The notes beneath the pieces were generated by a model that was not told where the DNA came from, ran no database searches, and saw only the letters and a list, made by a program, of their open reading frames with translations. A program made the position numbers and the translations under genes. From Candidatus Electronema aureum (GTDB lineage: Bacteria > Desulfobacterota > Desulfobulbia > Desulfobulbales > Desulfobulbaceae): 32,000 nucleotides of DNA. The stretch lies in the NCBI GenBank assembly GCA_004284765.1, contig NQJD01000015.1:1-32000 (forward strand), given 5' to 3'. Shown here piece after piece: positions 23,893 through 30,276 of this stretch (position 1 is its first letter; each line of letters opens with the position of its first letter).

Positions 23893-24417
23893 ATGGTGTT
23901 ATCCAAAGAAACGCTTGTGCAGCATAAATATCCGGTTATCGGCGCAGTGCTGGCCCTTGTTCTGATCAGCTGGCTTTTCTGGTATTTTTCTGATACGCAG
24001 ATAATCAAACGCCAGCTCATCGGCCTGTCTTGGGATGTGGGCAAAGAGAATCGACAAGAAAGCACTATGGAAACTGCTCTTAAAATGCGAGACGTAAAGG
24101 CGGTGCTGGCGGATAACTGCACCTTGGTTATTCCTGAACGCAACCGCACTGAATCTGTAGAAAAAGACTTGGCGATCATGTATCTGATGCACTACCGTGA
24201 CCGCTACGAGATGATAGCTGTCACCTTTGAAGAGATGGATATCGATTTTCCCGGCAAAGGTGAGGCATCGGTACAGAGCAAGGTTCTGCTACGGAAGCAG
24301 GTTAATCAACAAGCTCCGGCAGAAATTACAGCACCGGTTAAATTGGCACTCAAGAAGGAAAACGGCGACTGGTTGCTGACGCAGGCTGATATCGCCGCTG
24401 CCTTGCTTGACGATTAA
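23893..24417 (+). CDS. Hypothetical membrane-anchored protein (one N-terminal TM helix; possibly an NTF2/SnoaL-like fold)
   Basis: ATG at 23893 has a GGAGA Shine-Dalgarno 7 nt upstream; the ORF-track GTG at 23854 is an alternative. No recognisable catalytic motifs. Confidence 0.5.
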   Translation: MVLSKETLVQHKYPVIGAVLALVLISWLFWYFSDTQIIKRQLIGLSWDVGKENRQESTMETALKMRDVKAVLADNCTLVIPERNRTESVEKDLAIMYLMHYRDRYEMIAVTFEEMDIDFPGKGEASVQSKVLLRKQVNQQAPAEITAPVKLALKKENGDWLLTQADIAAALLDD

Positions 24418-25109
24418 CGCGGTGCAGTGCCAGTCTCTTCGCTGCGTTCGTCGTTGATTTCTTCTTGCTGTACCGGCATGGACTGCGGTTCGGTCTCATC
24501 AGGGATTGTCACCGGCTTCACTTTTTCGCCATCAACGGGCAGCTGTTCTTTGCCGAGCTTCTTTTGCTCTTGCTCACCTTTGATTTCTTCTGGTGGCATT
24601 GGCTTGAGGTCATCGCGAACACTGACATTACGGATGAACTGGCGGATAATTTCTGCTCCTTGACTCAGATAAGGCACGGTGAGCGAACCTTCAAACAGCG
24701 GATGCGCGGCAGGCAGTACGGCAGCAAGCAGCATGAACAGCAGTACCGTGACTAAGCCGCCTCGTGCCACGCCCAGTAAACCACCAGTAAGTCGATTCGC
24801 CCAACCGAGCAAGCTGATTTCCAGCACCTTGTGCAGCAGGCTGCCAATGAGGGTAAAAACCAAAGCGGAGAGAAGAAACAGGCTGCCAAAGCTGACCAAA
24901 AAGACCGCGCCGGGTCGGTCGATAAATCCCTCCACATAAGGCATGACTTGGCCTACATATTCCCCTGCCAGCCAATAACTGCCCACCAAGGCAGCGGTGG
25001 CAGCTAATTGGCGAACAAAGCCGATGCAGAGGCCGCGCAACAGGAAGAGGGTAAGGATACCTGCGATGATGTAATCAAAAGTGCTTATGTCGTTCAAGTT
25101 CAGCGTCAT
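24414..25109 (-). CDS. CvpA-family membrane protein (paralogue 2) with a low-complexity C-terminal tail
   Basis: I prefer the ATG at 25107-25109 (GAGGTGAG Shine-Dalgarno upstream), giving MTLNLNDISTFDYIIAGILTLFLLRGLCIGFVRQL, a CvpA-type N-terminus. The last ~70 aa are Pro/Glu/Lys-rich. Confidence 0.72.
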   Translation of the reverse strand: MTLNLNDISTFDYIIAGILTLFLLRGLCIGFVRQLAATAALVGSYWLAGEYVGQVMPYVEGFIDRPGAVFLVSFGSLFLLSALVFTLIGSLLHKVLEISLLGWANRLTGGLLGVARGGLVTVLLFMLLAAVLPAAHPLFEGSLTVPYLSQGAEIIRQFIRNVSVRDDLKPMPPEEIKGEQEQKKLGKEQLPVDGEKVKPVTIPDETEPQSMPVQQEEINDERSEETGTAPR

Positions 25110-25173
25110 GCCGCTCACCTCAGAAAAAAATTTGCAAGAAAGCTGTATTCTGGCTTCGATTATACCCCTTGTC

Positions 25174-25935
25174 ATGAAGATCACAACCAATACTTGCCCG
25201 GAAAAGGCCGCGCTGCTGATAGAATCCTTTTTCCCGATAGCCTGCGCTTGGGGCCGCCTACGGGTAGAAAAACAAAAGCGCATTGCTTTAGTTGATCTCG
25301 ACCAGCTGCGCGAGGACGACGTAGTATTGCTGCTTTCTGAAGCAGAAAGGATATATTTTCAGCGTTTCCACCACCCCAAACGGCGGCGGGAATGGCTATG
25401 CGGTAGGATTGCGGCTAAGATGGCCTTGCTGGATATGTACGAAGCAGAGGAGTTCCGGCGATTGACTCTTCTCCCGGATGAACACGGTAGGCCCGTGGTG
25501 AGCGGCTTGACGAAGAACAATCTATCACTTTCCATCACTCACAGCGGTAAATACGCTGCCGCATTGGCTGTGCCGAGAGAAAGCTGCGGCATTGATCTGC
25601 AAAAAATATCCGATAAACTGCCTTCGTTGATTAATTATTTTGCTTCAGAGACTGAACTGAAGCTGCTGAAGAATCAATCTGATCTCGGTAATCAGGAAAC
25701 AGCGTTAACCATGCTCTGGGCGGTCAAGGAGGCAGTGAAAAAGAGCGTGTTTGCAGATCAACCGGGGATTTTCTCCGGGATTGAGGCGCAGCGGATATCT
25801 GCTGCTGGAGATCATACTTGGCGATTTGAATGCGGCACGCACGGCTGTGCGATACAGATAGTGGCCGTGCATGATTTTGCCCCGTATATTTTAGCATTGA
25901 CCGAAAAAGATGGTCAGAATACGTTGCTTGCTTGA
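25174..25935 (+). CDS. Sfp-type 4'-phosphopantetheinyl transferase
   Basis: Motifs CGRIAAKMALL, SITHSGKYAAALAV, GIDLQKI and WAVKEAVKKS (WxxKEAxxK). The start is uncertain. The ORF-track start at 25081 would overlap cvpA head-to-head, so the ATG at 25174 is used. Confidence 0.78.
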   Translation: MKITTNTCPEKAALLIESFFPIACAWGRLRVEKQKRIALVDLDQLREDDVVLLLSEAERIYFQRFHHPKRRREWLCGRIAAKMALLDMYEAEEFRRLTLLPDEHGRPVVSGLTKNNLSLSITHSGKYAAALAVPRESCGIDLQKISDKLPSLINYFASETELKLLKNQSDLGNQETALTMLWAVKEAVKKSVFADQPGIFSGIEAQRISAAGDHTWRFECGTHGCAIQIVAVHDFAPYILALTEKDGQNTLLA

Positions 25936-26069: not shown

Positions 26070-26187
26070 TATGAAATACAAATTTTTAAATTTCTCACCG
26101 CAGCATCTTTTTCAGGTCAGACATTGCCCAGCGAAAGAGTTCTGCGCTGAGGCGATATCAACAAAAGAAGGAAGGAGGATGAACACA

Positions 26188-27138
26188 ATGAAACTCAAGG
26201 TGTTGTTCCAAGCTGCGGTTTTGCTGGCTCTATCGGTTTGTGCTGCTCAAGCGGTCACTGTGACCAACGTGCGCCGTAACCCGTTTTATCAGCCGCCACT
26301 GACTTCGGTATCTGATCTCAGATACATGATGCAGGCTACCCAAGAAGACATTAGAGACGGCCTGTATCAAGCAGGCTATCCTGAGCTGTATCAGCCACTA
26401 ATGGAGCAGTATCCCCAAGCTCCGGTGAGCAGGGTCGATTACCTGTCAGGCCAGAATTTTGTCTGGATGCTGTCCAAAGAAGGCGGTTACGGCTCAGTGC
26501 GAGTCGTCAGCGACATGGTCTGGGGCGGAAAGTCTTTGGCTGCGTATGAGTTTTCCATCTACAGCAACGGCGCGCAGTACGTCTTTTCTGTGCCGTTAGC
26601 CTGTGGCAATTTGGCTCTGAAAGAAGTCATCACCACTGGAGGTGGCGTAGTCGGAACAGGTCAGGTTGGTTGCCTGTCTTGCTACGGCTTCCGCTTTGTT
26701 GCCGATGTCGGCTATCTGCATCAGTCTGACCCAGCAGATTACCTTATGCTGCGGGCAGGTGTTGAGCATTCTTTGAGCAATCGACTTTCCTTTTTAGCGA
26801 TGGTCGGTGGTGCGCCGCATCTGTCCGGCACTGACGGCGACGATGCAATACTGGTGGATTTCCTCCTTCAGTATGACTGGTTCCGCTTCATGTTCGGCAA
26901 CCAGTGGTCACAGGCTTTTGTTGGAGTTGGTCTGGGTGGCTGGATTACTTCTGGCGACGACAACCTTGAGGCAGAAGACACTGACGTGGATGTGATTGCC
27001 AACATTGGTGCTCGTATCTACGGTCAGCCGGAAACCTTCAACGCCTCACTGTTCTTCGAAGCTCGCTCTGCTGTTGACGAGTTTGACACCCTCGGCGAGT
27101 ACGGACGTTTCGGAGCTGGGCTGCGCTGCCGCTTCTAA
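26188..27138 (+). CDS. Predicted outer-membrane protein of unknown family (N-terminal soluble domain plus small C-terminal beta-barrel)
   Basis: I prefer the start at ATG 26188, 3 nt after an AAGGAGG Shine-Dalgarno (9 nt from the GGAGG core). It has a signal peptide (MKLKVLFQAAVLLALSVCAAQA). The C-terminal half shows alternating amphipathic strands, and the protein ends in ...GAGLRCRF (terminal Phe, an OMP signature). Confidence 0.62.
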   Translation: MKLKVLFQAAVLLALSVCAAQAVTVTNVRRNPFYQPPLTSVSDLRYMMQATQEDIRDGLYQAGYPELYQPLMEQYPQAPVSRVDYLSGQNFVWMLSKEGGYGSVRVVSDMVWGGKSLAAYEFSIYSNGAQYVFSVPLACGNLALKEVITTGGGVVGTGQVGCLSCYGFRFVADVGYLHQSDPADYLMLRAGVEHSLSNRLSFLAMVGGAPHLSGTDGDDAILVDFLLQYDWFRFMFGNQWSQAFVGVGLGGWITSGDDNLEAEDTDVDVIANIGARIYGQPETFNASLFFEARSAVDEFDTLGEYGRFGAGLRCRF

Positions 27139-27164
27139 GCAGCTGAGTCTCCTGCGGCCTGAAC

Positions 27165-27212
27165 AAGGCGGAAAGTTCAGTCAGTTGACTGGGTTTTCCG
27201 CCTTTCTTATTT
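27165..27212 (+). terminator. Strong intrinsic terminator after the OMP gene
   Basis: AAGGCGGAAA (27165-27174) pairs with TTTCCGCCTT (27195-27204). There is an inner CAGTCA/TGACTG pairing, followed by a T-rich tail (TCTTATTT). Confidence 0.7.
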
Positions 27213-27220
27213 GACCACAA

Positions 27221-27249
27221 TTGACCGCTGCTGCTTTCATCGTTATGAT
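27221..27249 (+). promoter_or_regulatory. Candidate sigma70 promoter TTGACC-N17-TATGAT
   Basis: TTGACC at 27221-27226 and TATGAT at 27244-27249. This would place the transcription start near 27256, which argues that the DUF2868-like CDS starts at ATG 27296 rather than TTG 27221. Confidence 0.4.
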
Positions 27250-27295
27250 AGCGACATTGGCTTGTTTGCCGTCCCTTCCCGAACACTTGCAAAAA

Positions 27296-28858
27296 ATGTC
27301 CGCACAACGCTGGAACACCGCTGAACTGCTTGATCTTGAATTTTTCCTGCATCAGGACGAGGGCGAAGATATGGAACGGTTGGCCACCCGCGACCGGGCA
27401 ATCTGTCTTACTCTGCCTGCGGCGGTCAGCGAGCAACCGGACGTACTGCTCCGCAGCTGGTTAGCCAGCCGGAGAGCGGCGGAAACTACGGCTCTGCCCG
27501 GTGCGCTCTGGCAGGAGTTGTTTGTCCTCTTTTTCGGCGCAGCGGCACTGGCCGGACTGAGCAGCGGAGCGGGCTTGGCCTTTTCCTTACTTGCTTATTC
27601 TGGTGCCCAGCCGGTTAATGTGGCGGCATATTTTGCTATTTTTGTTCTGCTCCAGCTATCCCTGATTCTGCTGCTAACTGCCTCCATCTTCTGTAGTAAT
27701 TTGAAAGGAATCAGTATCCTCGAATCTTCTCTGCTCTATCGGCTGACCGGGCGGCTTTTTTTCTGGCTGCTGGAAAGATGCACAACCGCCGGTCGGCGCG
27801 CTACTTCGCGTATTTCTGCGGAAACCCGGATGAACTGGGCAGCCCACGCGAATAGTTTCAAAAGCCTACGGCAGCGGCATGGCCTGCTCTTTCTTCGGCC
27901 CTTTTTTCTCCTTGCCCAACTCTTCGGTATTAGCTTCAACATCGGGGTGCTGGCCGCAACTCTCCTCAAGGTAATCGGCTCTGATTTGGCTTTTGGCTGG
28001 CAAACCACGCTCCAGATTGATGCCGCCGCTGTTCATGCCTTGGTCGCCGCAATCAGCCTCCCTTGGTCTTGGCTGCCGAATTGCATTCCTTCTTTAGCGC
28101 AAATCGAAGGCTCGCGGCTGATTCTCAAAAATGGCATCTATCATTTGGCAAATCAGAATCTTACCTCTTGGTGGCCCTTCCTCTGCCTCTCGGTTCTGAG
28201 TTACGGCCTGCTGCCCCGGCTGGCTTTATTTTTCGTTGGAATTCTCCGCCAGCGCAAGGAATTAGCGCAATTCGATATGCAACAAGGCCGCTTCCGTCAG
28301 ATTCTTCACCGGATGCGTACCCCGTTAGTTTCCACTGCCGCCCGGACTGAGGAGCGGCGATCTTTATCTGAAGAAAAAAAATCGACTACAGTCAAGCCGC
28401 CGAATGATGAACAGCTCGTCTCTGCTGACCGCAAACTGCCGCCGGTCATCGCCCTGATTCCTGACGAGCTGGCGACCGTTCTGCCCTTCGCCGCTGTGGC
28501 GGAACAGCTCCGTTGCCGAGCCGGGCAGCAGCTTCTGCAGATTGTGCCGTTCTGGACACTCGACCGCAGCGAAGAAGAGGAATTAGTCGCGCTCAAGACG
28601 GCAATGATAGCGCAGGACTGCGCTGACGTGGTGATTATCCACGAGGCGTGGCAGCCACCAGTGCAGGAGCTGCTGACTTGGCTTGGTCTGCTGCGCCGCA
28701 CCATTGGCCCGCAGGCGATGATCAGTATCGCCTTGATCGGCAGACCGGCAGCGGACAGCCTGATCACCCCAGCGCAGTCGGAGCATCTGCGCATCTGGCG
28801 GCAGAAAATCGCGACAATTAGCGACTCCGGTCTGCATGTCATCGAATTGGTGAAATGA
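27296..28858 (+). CDS. DUF2868-like polytopic membrane protein with a cytoplasmic C-terminal alpha/beta domain
   Basis: The ORF-track version runs 27221-28858. It has about 5-6 TM helices (e.g. VNVAAYFAIFVLLQLSLILLLTASIF). The family call rests on gene-pair context with the downstream GTPase and on general architecture recalled from annotations. Confidence 0.7.
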   Translation: MSAQRWNTAELLDLEFFLHQDEGEDMERLATRDRAICLTLPAAVSEQPDVLLRSWLASRRAAETTALPGALWQELFVLFFGAAALAGLSSGAGLAFSLLAYSGAQPVNVAAYFAIFVLLQLSLILLLTASIFCSNLKGISILESSLLYRLTGRLFFWLLERCTTAGRRATSRISAETRMNWAAHANSFKSLRQRHGLLFLRPFFLLAQLFGISFNIGVLAATLLKVIGSDLAFGWQTTLQIDAAAVHALVAAISLPWSWLPNCIPSLAQIEGSRLILKNGIYHLANQNLTSWWPFLCLSVLSYGLLPRLALFFVGILRQRKELAQFDMQQGRFRQILHRMRTPLVSTAARTEERRSLSEEKKSTTVKPPNDEQLVSADRKLPPVIALIPDELATVLPFAAVAEQLRCRAGQQLLQIVPFWTLDRSEEEELVALKTAMIAQDCADVVIIHEAWQPPVQELLTWLGLLRRTIGPQAMISIALIGRPAADSLITPAQSEHLRIWRQKIATISDSGLHVIELVK

Positions 28859-30276
28859 TGCCGAATAACGTTCCTGTACCCGAATTCGCCATTGTCGGCC
28901 ATCCTAACGAAGGCAAATCTTCAGTGGTTTCAACCCTGAGCGAGGATGACTCGGTGCGGGTCAGTCCGGTGCCCGGTGAAACCACGGAATGCCGCATTTT
29001 TCCAGTGTTGATTGACGGACGCGAGGTCATTCGTTTCATCGACACGCCGGGCTTTCAGAACCCTCGCAAAACTCTGGCGTGGATGCGGGCGTATCAAGGC
29101 GATGACCGCGAAATGCTGGCTGAATTCATCCGCATTCACAGTAAAGACCCAGCCATGCACGACGACTGCGCTTTGCTTGCACCGTTATCCTCTGGCGCAG
29201 GGATTATTTTTGTTGTCGATGGTTCTCGCCCGCTCCGCAATATGGACCGAGCCGAAATGGAAATTCTGCGTCTCACCGGCAGGCCCCGCATGGCGATCAT
29301 CAACTGCAAGGACGAGAACAGCAGCTTTCTTGCTGATTGGCAAAATGAATTCAGAAAGCATTTCAATTCAATCCGTTTGTTCAATTCCAACCGAGCCACC
29401 TACAGTCAGCGTATCGCTCTGCTCAACAGCCTCAAGGCCATTGATCAGGATTTGGAAGGGGTGATTGAAACTGTCATTCAGGCGTTCAGTGCGGACTGGG
29501 AAAACCGCCGCCGCCAGAGCGCGACCTTGATCACCGCCATGCTCGCCGAGAGCCTGCGCTACCGGGCCAGCGCGGACTGTCCGCCCGGCAAAGATGAAAC
29601 GCAGCTCAAAGCGCAGCTGCACCGCGAATACACACAGTTTGTCACCAAATTAGAACGCACGGCGCACCAGCAAATCCGCAGGCTGTTCAAGCACAACCTT
29701 TTCAAGGTGCAACTGCCGGAGCAGTCGATTTTACAGGAAGATTTGTTTGCCGCCAAAACGTGGCAGTTTCTTGGTCTGCGTGATGAGGATTTGATCTGGG
29801 CGGCGGCGATGAGCGGGGCGGCAGTGGGCGTGGGGCTGGATGTTATGACCGCAGGAATTTCCTTTGGTGTGTTTGCGGCCATCGGTGGAGTGATCGGCGC
29901 AGCGGGCGCGGCTTTCAAAGGCAAGGAGCTGCTTTCCGGCAGCAGGCTTTTGGGCATGAAATTGGACAAGCAGCAGCTACAGGTCGGGCCGGTGACGAAT
30001 ATCCAGCTTCTCTACATCCTGCTCGACCGCGCCCTGCTTTACTGCCGCCAGATCATCAGTCGGGCGCATGGCCGCCGCGACAGCACCTCCGCATTGCTGG
30101 TCGATGAAGGCGAGAAGCAGGGCTATGCCTCCAGCTGGACAACTGAGGAACGAAAAATTTGCGACCGTTTTTTCAGAGCATTGCAGAAAGAGGATGCTCC
30201 TGCCCAAGAATTGGTTGAAAAGGAGCTAACTGAGTTAATTCGGGAAAAACTGCGGAAGATAGCGGAACATGCTTGA
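28855..30276 (+). CDS. P-loop GTPase with a C-terminal DUF3482-like region containing a glycine-zipper membrane hairpin
   Basis: G1 GHPNEGKSS, G2 GETTE, G3 DTPG, G4 NCKD. A helical middle region follows. A hydrophobic Gly/Ala-rich segment, WAAAMSGAAVGVGLDVMTAGISFGVFAAIGGVIGAAGAAF, is encoded at about 29797-29917. The start overlaps the upstream stop (ATGA). Confidence 0.85.
   Translation: MMPNNVPVPEFAIVGHPNEGKSSVVSTLSEDDSVRVSPVPGETTECRIFPVLIDGREVIRFIDTPGFQNPRKTLAWMRAYQGDDREMLAEFIRIHSKDPAMHDDCALLAPLSSGAGIIFVVDGSRPLRNMDRAEMEILRLTGRPRMAIINCKDENSSFLADWQNEFRKHFNSIRLFNSNRATYSQRIALLNSLKAIDQDLEGVIETVIQAFSADWENRRRQSATLITAMLAESLRYRASADCPPGKDETQLKAQLHREYTQFVTKLERTAHQQIRRLFKHNLFKVQLPEQSILQEDLFAAKTWQFLGLRDEDLIWAAAMSGAAVGVGLDVMTAGISFGVFAAIGGVIGAAGAAFKGKELLSGSRLLGMKLDKQQLQVGPVTNIQLLYILLDRALLYCRQIISRAHGRRDSTSALLVDEGEKQGYASSWTTEERKICDRFFRALQKEDAPAQELVEKELTELIREKLRKIAEHA

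What the first reader, a model, noticed from the sequence alone, without database searches (positions are those of the whole stretch)
26188..30276. Uncharacterised two-gene membrane-GTPase module (DUF2868-like polytopic protein plus P-loop GTPase with glycine-zipper hairpin) next to an unclassified outer-membrane protein
Seen in the sequence:
- A polytopic membrane protein of ~520 aa (about 5-6 TM helices and a ~170-aa cytoplasmic alpha/beta-looking C-terminal domain) is followed by a 473-aa GTPase. The stop and start codons overlap by 4 nt (ATGA at 28855-28858).
- The GTPase has intact G1-G4 motifs (GHPNEGKSS, GETTE, DTPG, NCKD), a long helical region, a Gly/Ala-zipper hydrophobic hairpin (nt ~29797-29917) and a helical C-terminus.
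- That arrangement (GTPase, then stalk, then membrane paddle) is reminiscent of dynamin-like or membrane-remodelling GTPases.
- The pair has its own good promoter (TTGACC-N17-TATGAT at 27221-27249). A strong terminator (27165-27212) separates it from the upstream gene.
- The upstream gene encodes a signal-peptide protein ending in a terminal Phe, with a novel N-terminal domain and a small predicted beta-barrel.

Established: as far as I know, the DUF2868 / DUF3482-GTPase gene pair is annotated in proteobacteria but has no assigned function.

Inference: this is a conserved envelope-associated GTP-driven system of unknown role.
Basis: partly seen in the sequence, partly recalled or inferred. Interest (0 to 1): 0.68.

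Follow-up and report, generated by a model that had tools for sequence, protein, structure and literature searches.

The report
Conserved membrane GTPase gene pair, function unknown
Two overlapping genes encode an inner-membrane protein and a membrane-anchored Era-like GTPase that always occur together in hundreds of bacterial species; both families are already catalogued (DUF2868, DUF3482) but nobody knows what they do, and the neighbouring outer-membrane protein gene is not part of the unit.

Summary
Genes at 27296-28858 (DUF2868, Pfam E=7.6e-58) and 28855-30276 (MMR_HSR1 + DUF3482, E=3e-65) overlap by ATGA. A terminator-like hairpin and a promoter-like site lie upstream.

The pair is a strict two-gene module. 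DUF2868 sits directly upstream, on the same strand, in 80/80 related genome loci and in a gammaproteobacterial plasmid. Stop and start overlap in 71/77 loci. No third gene is conserved. The OMP-like gene is absent from all related loci and belongs to a small family centred on cable bacteria.

- DUF2868 has 4 TM helices, not 5-6.
- Its C-terminal (beta-alpha)5 domain is about 140 aa.
- G1-G3 are invariant family-wide and of the K+-type, hydrophobic-substituted kind. G4 "NCKD" is not a canonical NKxD; only its Asn is conserved, so guanine specificity is unproven.

The dynamin likeness is architectural only. Dynamin_N scores below threshold, hhalign to LeoA and LeoB finds only P-loop and switch motifs, and Foldseek hits are weak (E~1e-4).

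Best reading: a heteromeric inner-membrane nucleotide-driven machine, probably membrane-shaping, less likely a gated transporter. I found no published function. It is a new member of known but uncharacterised families, of moderate interest.

The parts
26179..27138 (+). Neighbouring OMP-like gene (signal peptide, C-terminal Phe). It is NOT part of the module; it is listed because the finding's coordinates include it.
   Evidence: ORF. No Pfam, NCBIfam or PDB match. Only 101 relatives, almost all in cable bacteria and close Desulfobulbaceae. Absent from 80/80 related GTPase loci.
27165..27212 (+). Terminator-like hairpin (18-bp stem, 4-nt loop, T tract) that ends the OMP transcription unit
27221..27249 (+). 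Sigma-70-like promoter candidate, TTGACC-N17-TATGAT
   Evidence: 10 of 12 matches and an intergenic position. The count of such sites in the region is not above chance.
27296..28858 (+). DUF2868 gene: 520-aa inner-membrane protein, N-in/C-in, 4 TM helices
   Evidence: Pfam PF11067 E=7.6e-58. AF2 pLDDT 83. Hydropathy and positive-inside analysis. 779 homologues.
27296..27493 (+). DUF2868 N-terminal cytoplasmic three-helix domain (aa 1-66) with invariant D13, E15, R32-D33-R34 and W55
27497..27706 (+). DUF2868 TM1-TM2 hairpin (aa 68-137)
27881..28267 (+). DUF2868 TM3, conserved periplasmic loop and TM4 (aa 196-324). This is the most conserved part: Q208, N215, D230-x-AFGWQ, GS272-273, K278, G280, Y282, WWPFL292-296.
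28442..28855 (+). DUF2868 C-terminal cytoplasmic (beta-alpha)5 domain (aa 383-520) with the invariant E450-x-WQPP motif and no P-loop
   Evidence: AF2 gives pLDDT >90 here. Foldseek gives only weak matches to G domains and flavodoxin-like folds, E>=0.02. hhalign against the partner G domain finds nothing.
28855..28858 (+). ATGA stop/start overlap, implying translational coupling
   Evidence: Stop and start overlap in 71/77 related loci, and 51 of those are the 4-nt ATGA type.
28855..30276 (+). GTPase/DUF3482 gene, 473 aa
   Evidence: Pfam DUF3482 E=3e-65 and MMR_HSR1 E=5.5e-13. AF2 pLDDT 77, pTM 0.76.
28855..29439 (+). Era/Der/EngB-like G domain (aa 1-195). G1 is GHPNEGKSS, T43 is the G2 threonine, and G3 is DTPGF (hydrophobic residue in place of the catalytic Gln). 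Two extra helices follow switch II. G4 is the atypical N150-C-K-D.
29446..29688 (+). Two long helices (aa 198-234 and 248-278), stalk-like
29791..29919 (+). Glycine-zipper hydrophobic hairpin (aa 313-355). Asp329 sits at the turn and is near-invariant (90/95). G321, G334, G344 and G348 are conserved.
30001..30267 (+). C-terminal helices (aa 383-404, 430-445, 448-471) with conserved D391, R392, H405 and R408

Best explanation
**What the sequence shows.** The two translationally coupled genes encode the subunits of one inner-membrane complex.

- **NTPase subunit (DUF3482).**
  - It has an Era/EngA/FeoB-type P-loop G domain with GxxNxGKS and DTPG-Phe motifs. This is the hydrophobic-substituted type, probably activated by a monovalent cation and by dimerisation.
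  - Two long helices follow, then a short glycine-zipper hairpin with a conserved Asp at its tip, then a C-terminal helical segment.
  - With a hairpin anchor, both soluble parts should lie on the cytoplasmic face.
- **Partner subunit (DUF2868).**
  - It has 4 TM helices and a small N-terminal cytoplasmic helical domain.
  - It has a highly conserved periplasm-facing loop.
  - It has a C-terminal cytoplasmic (beta-alpha)5 domain that lacks nucleotide-binding motifs.

**What I infer.**
- The hairpin packs against the partner's TM helices.
- The partner's cytoplasmic domains dock on and regulate the G domain.
- Nucleotide binding and hydrolysis, through G-domain dimerisation, move the stalk and hairpin. 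That deforms, tethers or repairs the cytoplasmic membrane.
- This would be a small analogue of mitofusin, atlastin, BDLP, GIMAP or IRG built on an Era-like G domain, serving a housekeeping or stress role rather than defence.

**Shown:** family membership, strict pairing and coupling, motif conservation, topology and predicted folds.
**Inferred:** the physical complex, K+ and dimer activation, and membrane remodelling as the output.
For: - **Family and fold.** Pfam assignments. The G domain is closest to Era, Der and EngB by sequence and fold.
- **Catalytic motifs across 95 family representatives.** G1 Asn18 92/95, Thr43 95/95, DTPG 95/95, Phe67 94/95.
- **Cation activation.** The G1 Asn is the K+ ligand in MnmE and FeoB (PMC3466195).
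- **Architecture.** The AF2 model runs G domain, two long helices, hydrophobic hairpin, C-terminal helices, with pTM 0.76.
- **Longer fold matches.** The longest Foldseek alignments are to membrane-active GTPases: Irga6/IIGP1, IniA, GIMAP2/7, dynamin, MxA and EHD. All are weak, E 1e-4 to 1e-2.
- **Pairing.**
  - 80/80 loci have DUF2868 directly upstream on the same strand.
  - Stop and start overlap in 71/77 loci.
  - The same pair occurs in Thiodictyon at 39% identity.
  - No third conserved gene was found.
- **Uniform architecture.** Full-length family members are almost all about 455-495 aa, with the DUF3482 region starting near residue 180.
- **Setting.**
  - The window neighbours are core chromosomal genes.
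  - The family is absent from viral contigs.
  - At least 580 matching loci were found among species-representative genomes.
Against: - **No experimental data** exist for any member of either family.
- **Homology to dynamin-like proteins is not supported.**
  - Dynamin_N scores 16.4 bits, below the cut-off of 27, and covers only the P-loop.
  - hhalign of the family profile against LeoA and LeoB aligns only G1 and G3, with probability below 5%.
  - The PADLOC LeoBC hit is not reproduced by the stalk and hairpin region alone.
- **The G domain is small**, about 190 aa against about 300 aa in dynamins.
- **G4 is degenerate family-wide**, so GTP specificity is unproven.
- **The K+ signature is incomplete.** The second K-loop Asn, at Lys+5, is an invariant Ser here.
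- **The DUF2868 C-terminal domain has no significant structural match**; the best is E=0.023.
- **Physical interaction was not modelled**, because no AlphaFold-Multimer job was available.
- **Alternative reading of the membrane residues.** Invariant polar residues in and next to the TM helices fit a transporter or channel at least as well. These are N108, Q208, N215, D230 and Q236 in DUF2868 and D329 in the hairpin.
Confidence: 0.4

Rival explanations
1. Nucleotide-gated transporter or channel, FeoB-like in logic. The 4 TM helices of DUF2868 and the glycine-zipper hairpin of the GTPase, probably as an oligomer, form a permeation path. The Era/FeoB-type G domain gates it.
For: - The G domain is of the FeoB/Era type. 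FeoB_N scores E=3.4e-4 and NFeoB structures appear among the Foldseek hits.
- From my own knowledge, FeoB also uses an N-x-x-D type G4 rather than NKxD.
- Invariant polar residues lie inside or beside the TM helices, and an invariant Asp sits at the hairpin tip.
- From my own knowledge, glycine zippers are typical of oligomeric channel helices.
- A 1:1 subunit ratio is implied by the stop/start overlap.
Against: - FeoB_N is below the Pfam cut-off (20.6 against 27 bits), and no FeoB_C or Gate domain is found.
- The membrane part shows no similarity to any known transporter by Pfam, NCBIfam, PDB sequence or Foldseek.
- Only 4+2 short TM segments are available.
- No substrate-related genes are conserved nearby.
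Confidence: 0.2
2. Regulatory or quality-control switch at the membrane, comparable in logic to YcjX/YcjF or to the SRP-receptor type. The GTPase senses or licenses a membrane event, such as protein insertion, a stress signal or lipid state. The DUF2868 (beta-alpha)5 domain acts as a pseudo-receiver or pseudo-NTPase regulator.
For: - The C-terminal domain is a (beta-alpha)5 fold with acidic residues at the ends of beta1 (D390-E391) and beta3 (invariant E450), reminiscent of receiver domains.
- There is a weak PDB sequence hit to a receiver domain, 2j48, E=0.33.
- There are weak Foldseek hits to G domains, including EF-Tu and YsxC.
- Signalling genes often lie nearby in subsets of loci: histidine kinases in 21 loci and a response-regulator cyclase in 17.
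- One chimeric protein joins CHASE4-HAMP-HisKA to the C-terminal half of DUF3482.
Against: - All of these matches are non-significant.
- The signalling neighbours are lineage-local and vary in orientation.
- The chimera is a single cluster and may be an assembly artefact.
Confidence: 0.15
3. Anti-phage defence module related to Eleos (the LeoA/LeoBC dynamin-like system).
For: PADLOC LeoA hits occur in 60/60 family members and LeoBC hits in 46/60.
Against: - The hits rest on the G-domain motifs. The non-G region alone gives no hit, and hhalign to LeoA and LeoB is negative beyond G1 and G3.
- No second dynamin-like gene is present.
- The pair is highly conserved (55-60% identity across orders), occurs as a single copy per fetched locus, and sits among housekeeping genes.
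- It is absent from viral contigs.
- Nothing in the related loci suggests a defence island.
Confidence: 0.03
4. Three-gene envelope-spanning system that includes the upstream outer-membrane protein.
For: The genes are adjacent on the same strand in this window and apparently in a contig of the same species (P0241 and P0121 share a 5756-nt contig).
Against: - A terminator and a promoter candidate lie between the OMP gene and the pair.
- OMP homologues are absent from 80/80 related loci, including five Electronema-like loci at 79-84% GTPase identity.
- The OMP family has about 100 members, whereas the GTPase was found at 580 or more loci in species genomes.
Confidence: 0.03

Closest known systems
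Pfam DUF2868 (PF11067) and DUF3482 (PF11981) with MMR_HSR1; annotated by NCBI as 'DUF2868 domain-containing protein' and 'GTPase/DUF3482 domain-containing protein'
   Same: Full-length, high-scoring matches. The closest homologues carry the same annotation in Desulfobulbus sp. F5, Ca. Electronema, Ca. Electrothrix and Thiodictyon.
   Different: Nothing differs; this is a straightforward member. The families themselves have no assigned function.
TrmE-Era-EngA-YihA-septin-like (TEES) GTPases: Era, Der/EngA, EngB/YsxC, MnmE, FeoB N-domain
   Same: - These are the best sequence and fold matches for aa 1-190.
- The GxxNxGKS P-loop carries the K+-ligand Asn.
- A hydrophobic residue follows DxxG.
   Different: - All NCBIfam scores are far below the equivalog cut-offs.
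- There is no KH, RNA-binding or transporter domain.
- Two extra helices follow switch II.
- G4 is not NKxD.
- The second K-loop Asn is replaced by Ser.
- The protein is membrane-anchored by a hairpin.
Bacterial dynamin-like proteins and mitofusin or atlastin (BDLP, LeoA/LeoBC, IniA, DynA)
   Same: - The order of parts matches: G domain, helical stalk, hydrophobic paddle or hairpin, returning helices.
- The gene sits in a two-gene operon.
- There are weak Foldseek hits to IniA, dynamin and MxA.
- LeoB also has a glycine-rich hydrophobic segment.
   Different: - The G domain is about 190 aa, not about 300 aa.
- Dynamin_N is below threshold.
- hhalign to LeoA and LeoB is negative outside G1 and G3.
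- The stalk is much shorter.
- The partner is a polytopic membrane protein, not a second dynamin-like protein.
GIMAP/AIG1/Toc34 and IRG (Irga6) membrane-associated septin-like GTPases
   Same: - A small G domain is followed by a helical extension and a C-terminal membrane anchor.
- Foldseek hits include Irga6 (E=2.7e-4, 343 columns), GIMAP2/7 and Toc34.
- A Moraxella family member gives a weak AIG1 Pfam hit, E=0.0039.
   Different: - Those families are eukaryotic.
- All similarity is below the family thresholds.
- The anchor here is an internal hairpin, not a C-terminal TM helix or a lipid modification.
E. coli YcjX/YcjF (P-loop NTPase plus small membrane protein pair)
   Same: From my own knowledge only: the same genetic logic, a conserved NTPase gene paired with an inner-membrane protein gene of unknown role.
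   Different: The Pfam families are unrelated. No match to them appeared in any scan here.

Membership tests
Pfam DUF3482 (PF11981) | Score above the gathering cut-off (29.2 bits) over the full-length domain | tested here: met
   221 bits, E=3e-65, aa 168-452 against profile positions 7-278 of 293
Pfam DUF2868 (PF11067) | Score above the gathering cut-off (26.8 bits) | tested here: met
   196.9 bits, E=7.6e-58, aa 184-509 against profile positions 10-314 of 315
DUF2868/DUF3482 gene pair | The two genes are adjacent, co-oriented and translationally coupled across genomes | tested here: met
   80/80 loci plus Thiodictyon. Stop and start overlap in 71/77 loci.
TEES-class GTPase (MMR_HSR1, PF01926) | G1, G2 and G3 motifs present and a Pfam score above 21.9 bits | tested here: met
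   49.5 bits. G1-G3 are invariant.
TEES-class GTPase (MMR_HSR1, PF01926) | Canonical G4 NKxD, which confers guanine specificity | tested here: not met
   The window has N-C-K-D. The close clade has N-[CS]-K-[ED]. Family-wide only the Asn is conserved, and Asp153 occurs in 13/95.
K+-activated (cation-dependent) GTPases (MnmE, FeoB, EngA, YqeH) | First Asn, in G1 (GxxNxGK[ST]) | tested here: met
   N18 is invariant in the clade and present in 92/95 family-wide. The rule comes from PMC3466195.
K+-activated (cation-dependent) GTPases (MnmE, FeoB, EngA, YqeH) | Second Asn, five residues after the P-loop Lys, which stabilises the K-loop | tested here: not met
   Position 26 is an invariant Ser. The rule comes from PMC3466195.
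K+-activated (cation-dependent) GTPases (MnmE, FeoB, EngA, YqeH) | K+-stimulated GTP hydrolysis | not testable with these tools
   Requires a biochemical assay
Dynamin superfamily / bacterial dynamin-like proteins | Large dynamin-type G domain (Pfam Dynamin_N above 27 bits) | tested here: not met
   16.4 bits, aa 12-40 only. The G domain is about 190 aa.
Dynamin superfamily / bacterial dynamin-like proteins | Homologous stalk (middle domain and GED) around a membrane-binding paddle | tested here: inconclusive
   The AF2 model has helices on both sides of a hydrophobic hairpin. Against this, hhalign to LeoA and LeoB is negative, PADLOC gives no hit for the C-terminal region alone, and the Foldseek hit to IniA has E=4e-4 with TM-score about 0.2.
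Dynamin superfamily / bacterial dynamin-like proteins | Nucleotide-dependent G-domain dimerisation and membrane remodelling | not testable with these tools
   Requires biochemistry or electron microscopy
FeoB ferrous iron transporter | FeoB_N above the cut-off together with FeoB_C or Gate membrane domains | tested here: not met
   FeoB_N scores 20.6 bits against a cut-off of 27, and no FeoB_C is found
Eleos (LeoA + LeoBC) defence system | Two dynamin-like genes, LeoA and LeoBC, matched over their full length | tested here: not met
   The PADLOC hits are partial: LeoA over aa 11-68 at 27 bits and LeoBC at 22.5 bits. No second dynamin-like gene is present.

The most novel reading that the evidence does not exclude
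The DUF2868/DUF3482 pair is a previously unrecognised class of bacterial membrane-shaping or membrane-fusing machine. In this reading it is a 'mini-mitofusin' that evolved from an Era/FeoB-type, cation-activated G domain independently of dynamins. It would work as an obligate heteromer with a 4-TM partner whose conserved periplasmic loop and the hairpin's invariant Asp form the membrane-active site.
Probability: 0.25. Interest if true: 0.75.

Novelty: new member of a known kind. Interest (0 to 1): 0.45.

Why it matters
The pair occurs at 580 or more loci in species-representative genomes of Thermodesulfobacteriota. It is also present in Gammaproteobacteria, including Pseudomonas aeruginosa and Moraxella catarrhalis. 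Neither protein has a known function.

The strict 1:1 coupling, the invariant catalytic motifs and the unusual anchor all point to a defined molecular machine in the cytoplasmic membrane. The anchor is a glycine-zipper hairpin with a conserved Asp at its tip.

If the pair remodels membranes, it would show that dynamin-like architecture arose convergently on an Era-like G domain. If it gates transport, it would be a second FeoB-like design.

Either way the hypothesis can be tested in tractable pathogens. For this particular window, however, the result is an ordinary instance of an already catalogued pair of domains of unknown function.

Tried and rejected
1. **Homology of the stalk and hairpin to LeoBC.** PADLOC reported a LeoBC stretch over aa 183-356. 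Scanning aa 183-473 alone gave no hit even at E<=1. hhalign of the family profile against ETEC LeoB and LeoA aligned only G3 and G1. Rejected as evidence of homology.
2. **DUF2868 C-terminal domain as a degenerate copy of the partner's G domain.** hhalign gave probability 0.3%. Foldseek matches to EF-Tu and YsxC had E>=0.02. Kept only as a weak lead.
3. **A third conserved gene.** Clustering all ORFs from the 80 loci found only lineage-local neighbours: histidine kinase, response-regulator cyclase, DinB, EamA, RecQ and Prc.
4. **OMP as part of the system.** Rejected.
5. **OMP classification.** Pfam, NCBIfam, PDB phmmer and a 45-sequence profile against PDB found nothing.
6. **Rosetta-stone fusion.** P0481 (984 aa) carries DUF2868, MMR_HSR1 and DUF3482. 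Its junction is an Arg-rich stretch that replaces the DUF2868 C-terminal domain, which is typical of a frameshifted high-GC reading. I do not count it as a true fusion.
7. **Phage or plasmid carriage.** There were no viral contigs. The 'phage' BLAST hits are Moraxella host DNA beyond attR. The only plasmid record is a 485-kb Thiodictyon replicon.
8. **Literature.** Only four papers mention either DUF, and none is functional.

Full report
**1. Observation**

The three ORFs exist as described.
- The OMP-like gene has signal-peptide starts at 26179 and 26188, ends at 27138, and its product ends ...GLRCRF.
- The polytopic protein's ORF opens at TTG 27221. Homologues align from the first ATG at 27296 with 100% coverage, so the gene is 27296-28858 and encodes 520 aa.
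- The GTPase gene is 28855-30276 and encodes 473 aa. The two genes overlap in ATGA at 28855-28858.
- A hairpin with an 18-bp stem and a T tract lies at 27165-27212.
- A TTGACC-N17-TATGAT site lies at 27221-27249 and matches 10 of 12 consensus positions. The number of promoter-like sites in the region (4) is not above the shuffle expectation (3.1). The promoter is therefore a reasonable candidate, not a demonstrated one.

**2. Family assignment**

- Pfam gives DUF2868 (E=7.6e-58) for the membrane protein. It gives DUF3482 (E=3e-65) plus MMR_HSR1 (E=5.5e-13) for the GTPase.
- FeoB_N (20.6 bits) and Dynamin_N (16.4 bits) both fall below their cut-offs of 27 bits.
- NCBIfam matches only the first 70 or so residues to Era, Der, EngB, HydF and MnmE models, far below the equivalog cut-offs.
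- PDB sequence searches find only G-domain relatives (Der, Era, EngB). They find nothing for DUF2868 or the OMP.
- The closest homologues come from Desulfobulbus sp. F5 (96%), Ca. Electronema (about 80%) and Ca. Electrothrix (about 72%). The window is therefore from a cable-bacterium-type member of the Desulfobulbaceae.
- The other genes scanned in the window are mostly housekeeping: EF-P, IspDF, a phosphopantetheinyl transferase, CvpA and a metallophosphoesterase.

**3. The pair is a strict two-gene module**

- A scan of one genome per GTDB species found at least 580 loci encoding a relative.
- In the 80 best loci, tblastn places a DUF2868 homologue directly upstream on the same strand in 80/80. 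These loci are from Desulfobulbales, Desulfocapsaceae and Desulfuromonadales.
- None of the window's other neighbours is found in any of those loci. That covers the OMP, the PPTase, CvpA, the phosphoesterase and EF-P.
- The DUF2868 stop and the GTPase start overlap by 1-17 nt in 71 of 77 evaluable loci, and 51 of these are the 4-nt ATGA type.
- Clustering all flanking ORFs found no third conserved gene.
- The same overlapping pair occurs on the 485-kb replicon of the gammaproteobacterium Thiodictyon syntrophicum at 39% identity. [quoted passage not shown]
- In P. aeruginosa the two families have consecutive gene ids (PMC12864544).
- A Moraxella catarrhalis chromosomal gene next to a prophage attR is also a full DUF3482 GTPase.
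- A phmmer search of 1.84 billion representatives with the DUF3482 region alone gives 558 clusters at E<=1e-3. Full-length members are nearly all 455-495 aa, with DUF3482 starting near residue 180. The architecture is therefore fixed.

**4. Anatomy of the GTPase**

The AF2 model has pLDDT 77 and pTM 0.76.
- **G domain (aa 10-195).** It is Ras-like, with two extra helices after switch II.
- **Stalk.** Two long helices span 198-234 and 248-278.
- **Hairpin.** A conserved amphipathic segment (TWxFLGL, 302-308) leads into a low-confidence hydrophobic hairpin at 313-355.
- **C-terminal part.** A small beta-hairpin is followed by three helices (383-404, 430-445, 448-471).

Conservation across 95 full-length representatives:
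- G1 GxxNxGK[ST]: Asn18 in 92/95.
- Thr43: 95/95.
- D-T-P-G: 95/95.
- Phe67: 94/95. This makes the protein a 'hydrophobic-substituted' GTPase like Era, EngA, FeoB and MnmE.

The G1 Asn is the K+ ligand in MnmE and FeoB. The second signature Asn, at Lys+5, is an invariant Ser here (PMC3466195). Cation activation is therefore plausible but only half-supported.

G4 is not canonical. The window has N-C-K-D and the close clade has N-[CS]-K-[ED], with Glu more common than Asp. Family-wide only the Asn survives, and Thiodictyon has NNLT. Guanine specificity is thus unproven.

In the hairpin, G321, G334, G344 and G348 are conserved, and Asp329 at the turn is conserved in 90/95. D391, R392, H405 and R408 in the returning helices are also conserved. 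The first hydrophobic arm is only about 15 residues long, so the hairpin could be either transmembrane or re-entrant.

**5. Anatomy of DUF2868**

The AF2 model has pLDDT 83. With hydropathy and charge analysis it gives this layout:
- A cytoplasmic three-helix N-domain (aa 1-66).
- TM1 and TM2 (about 70-137).
- A K/R-rich cytoplasmic helical loop.
- A long TM3 (196-232).
- A 60-residue periplasmic loop.
- TM4 (293-324).
- A disordered basic linker.
- A confident (beta-alpha)5 domain (383-517).

That makes four TM helices, not five or six.

The strongest conservation lies in three places: in TM3 and at its periplasmic end (Q208, N215, D230-x-AFGWQ), in the loop (GS272-273, K278, G280, Y282, WWPFL), and in an E450-x-WQPP motif after beta3 of the C-terminal domain.

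Foldseek finds no significant PDB match. The best are EF-Tu (E=0.023) and YsxC (E=0.07), followed by flavodoxin-like folds. The domain has no P-loop, and hhalign against the partner's G domain is negative.

**6. Comparison with dynamin-like proteins**

The order of parts recalls BDLP, mitofusin and atlastin: G domain, stalk, hydrophobic hairpin, returning helices. Foldseek's longer but weak matches include Irga6 (E=2.7e-4), IniA (4e-4), GIMAPs, dynamin, MxA and EHD.

PADLOC gave LeoA hits in 60/60 family members and LeoBC hits in 46/60. I fetched the ETEC leoCBA locus using DNA from the supplement of PMC4159319 and tested this link directly.
- hhalign of the family profile against LeoB and LeoA aligns only G3 and G1, with probability below 5%.
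- The stalk and hairpin region alone gives no PADLOC hit even at E<=1.

'Works like' therefore remains an architectural inference, and membership in the dynamin superfamily is not supported.

**7. The OMP**

- It has a signal peptide, a C-terminal Phe, and no Pfam, NCBIfam or PDB match, even with a 45-sequence profile.
- It has only 101 relatives in 5.8 billion clusters, almost all in Electronema, Electrothrix and close kin.
- It is not adjacent to the pair in any of the 55 related loci with enough upstream flank. These include five Electronema-like loci.
- It is an unrelated neighbour, restricted to this lineage.

**8. Mechanism and ranking**

- **Best-supported (0.4).** A heteromeric inner-membrane complex in which an Era/FeoB-type NTPase uses nucleotide-dependent dimerisation to move a stalk and hairpin packed against the 4-TM partner. 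The output would be membrane shaping, tethering or repair.
- **Rivals.** A FeoB-like gated transporter (0.2), a membrane-associated regulatory or quality-control switch with a pseudo-receiver partner (0.15), an Eleos-like defence module (0.03), and a three-gene system that includes the OMP (0.03).
- The remaining probability is for something not yet imagined.

**9. Novelty**

The window contains an ordinary member of two catalogued families of unknown function. No functional paper was found: four full-text hits, none functional.

What this analysis adds is evidence that the pair is strict, an account of which motifs are conserved, and the finding that the dynamin analogy is not backed by homology. 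Interest is moderate.

Noticed in passing
window 26179-27138 (+): The OMP-like protein belongs to a small, unannotated family of 101 relatives. Almost all are in the cable bacteria Ca. Electronema and Ca. Electrothrix or in close Desulfobulbaceae, often with several longer paralogues. It has no Pfam or PDB match. It may be a lineage-specific envelope protein of cable bacteria.
   Followed up: partly
window 20606-22918 (-): A 770-aa T2SSE/MshE-type secretion ATPase carries an N-terminal MshEN domain and a C-terminal cyclic-nucleotide-binding domain. The cNMP fusion looks unusual.
   Followed up: no
P0481 (984 aa; representative library): An apparent single-chain DUF2868 + MMR_HSR1 + DUF3482 protein from a high-GC organism. 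An Arg-rich junction replaces the DUF2868 C-terminal domain, so it is probably a frameshift or read-through artefact rather than a true fusion.
   Followed up: partly
P0357 (655 aa; representative library): A CHASE4-HAMP-HisKA sensor-kinase N-terminus joined to the C-terminal half of DUF3482 (hairpin plus returning helices). It is either a real domain shuffle or a chimeric assembly. Histidine kinases also lie near the pair in 21 of 80 loci.
   Followed up: no
L083 2420-3865 (Moraxella phage Mcat9 record KR093633.1): The prophage attR lies about 25 nt upstream of a host DUF3482 GTPase gene (466 aa), and an ABC1/UbiB-type kinase gene is convergent downstream. In Moraxella catarrhalis the prophage therefore integrates immediately upstream of the GTPase gene. 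Whether this separates it from a DUF2868 gene could not be seen, because the record starts at attL.
   Followed up: partly
L081 5878-7989 (Thiodictyon pTs485): The Thiodictyon DUF2868 protein is 703 aa because of a roughly 190-aa Pro/Ala/Glu-rich insert in the linker before the C-terminal domain. Its partner GTPase has NNLT in place of the G4 motif.
   Followed up: no
window 24414-25283 (-) and 25081-25935 (+): The longest ORFs of the divergent CvpA-like and phosphopantetheinyl-transferase genes overlap by about 200 nt. The Pfam domains begin at residues 69 and 83, so both true starts are probably further in.
   Followed up: no
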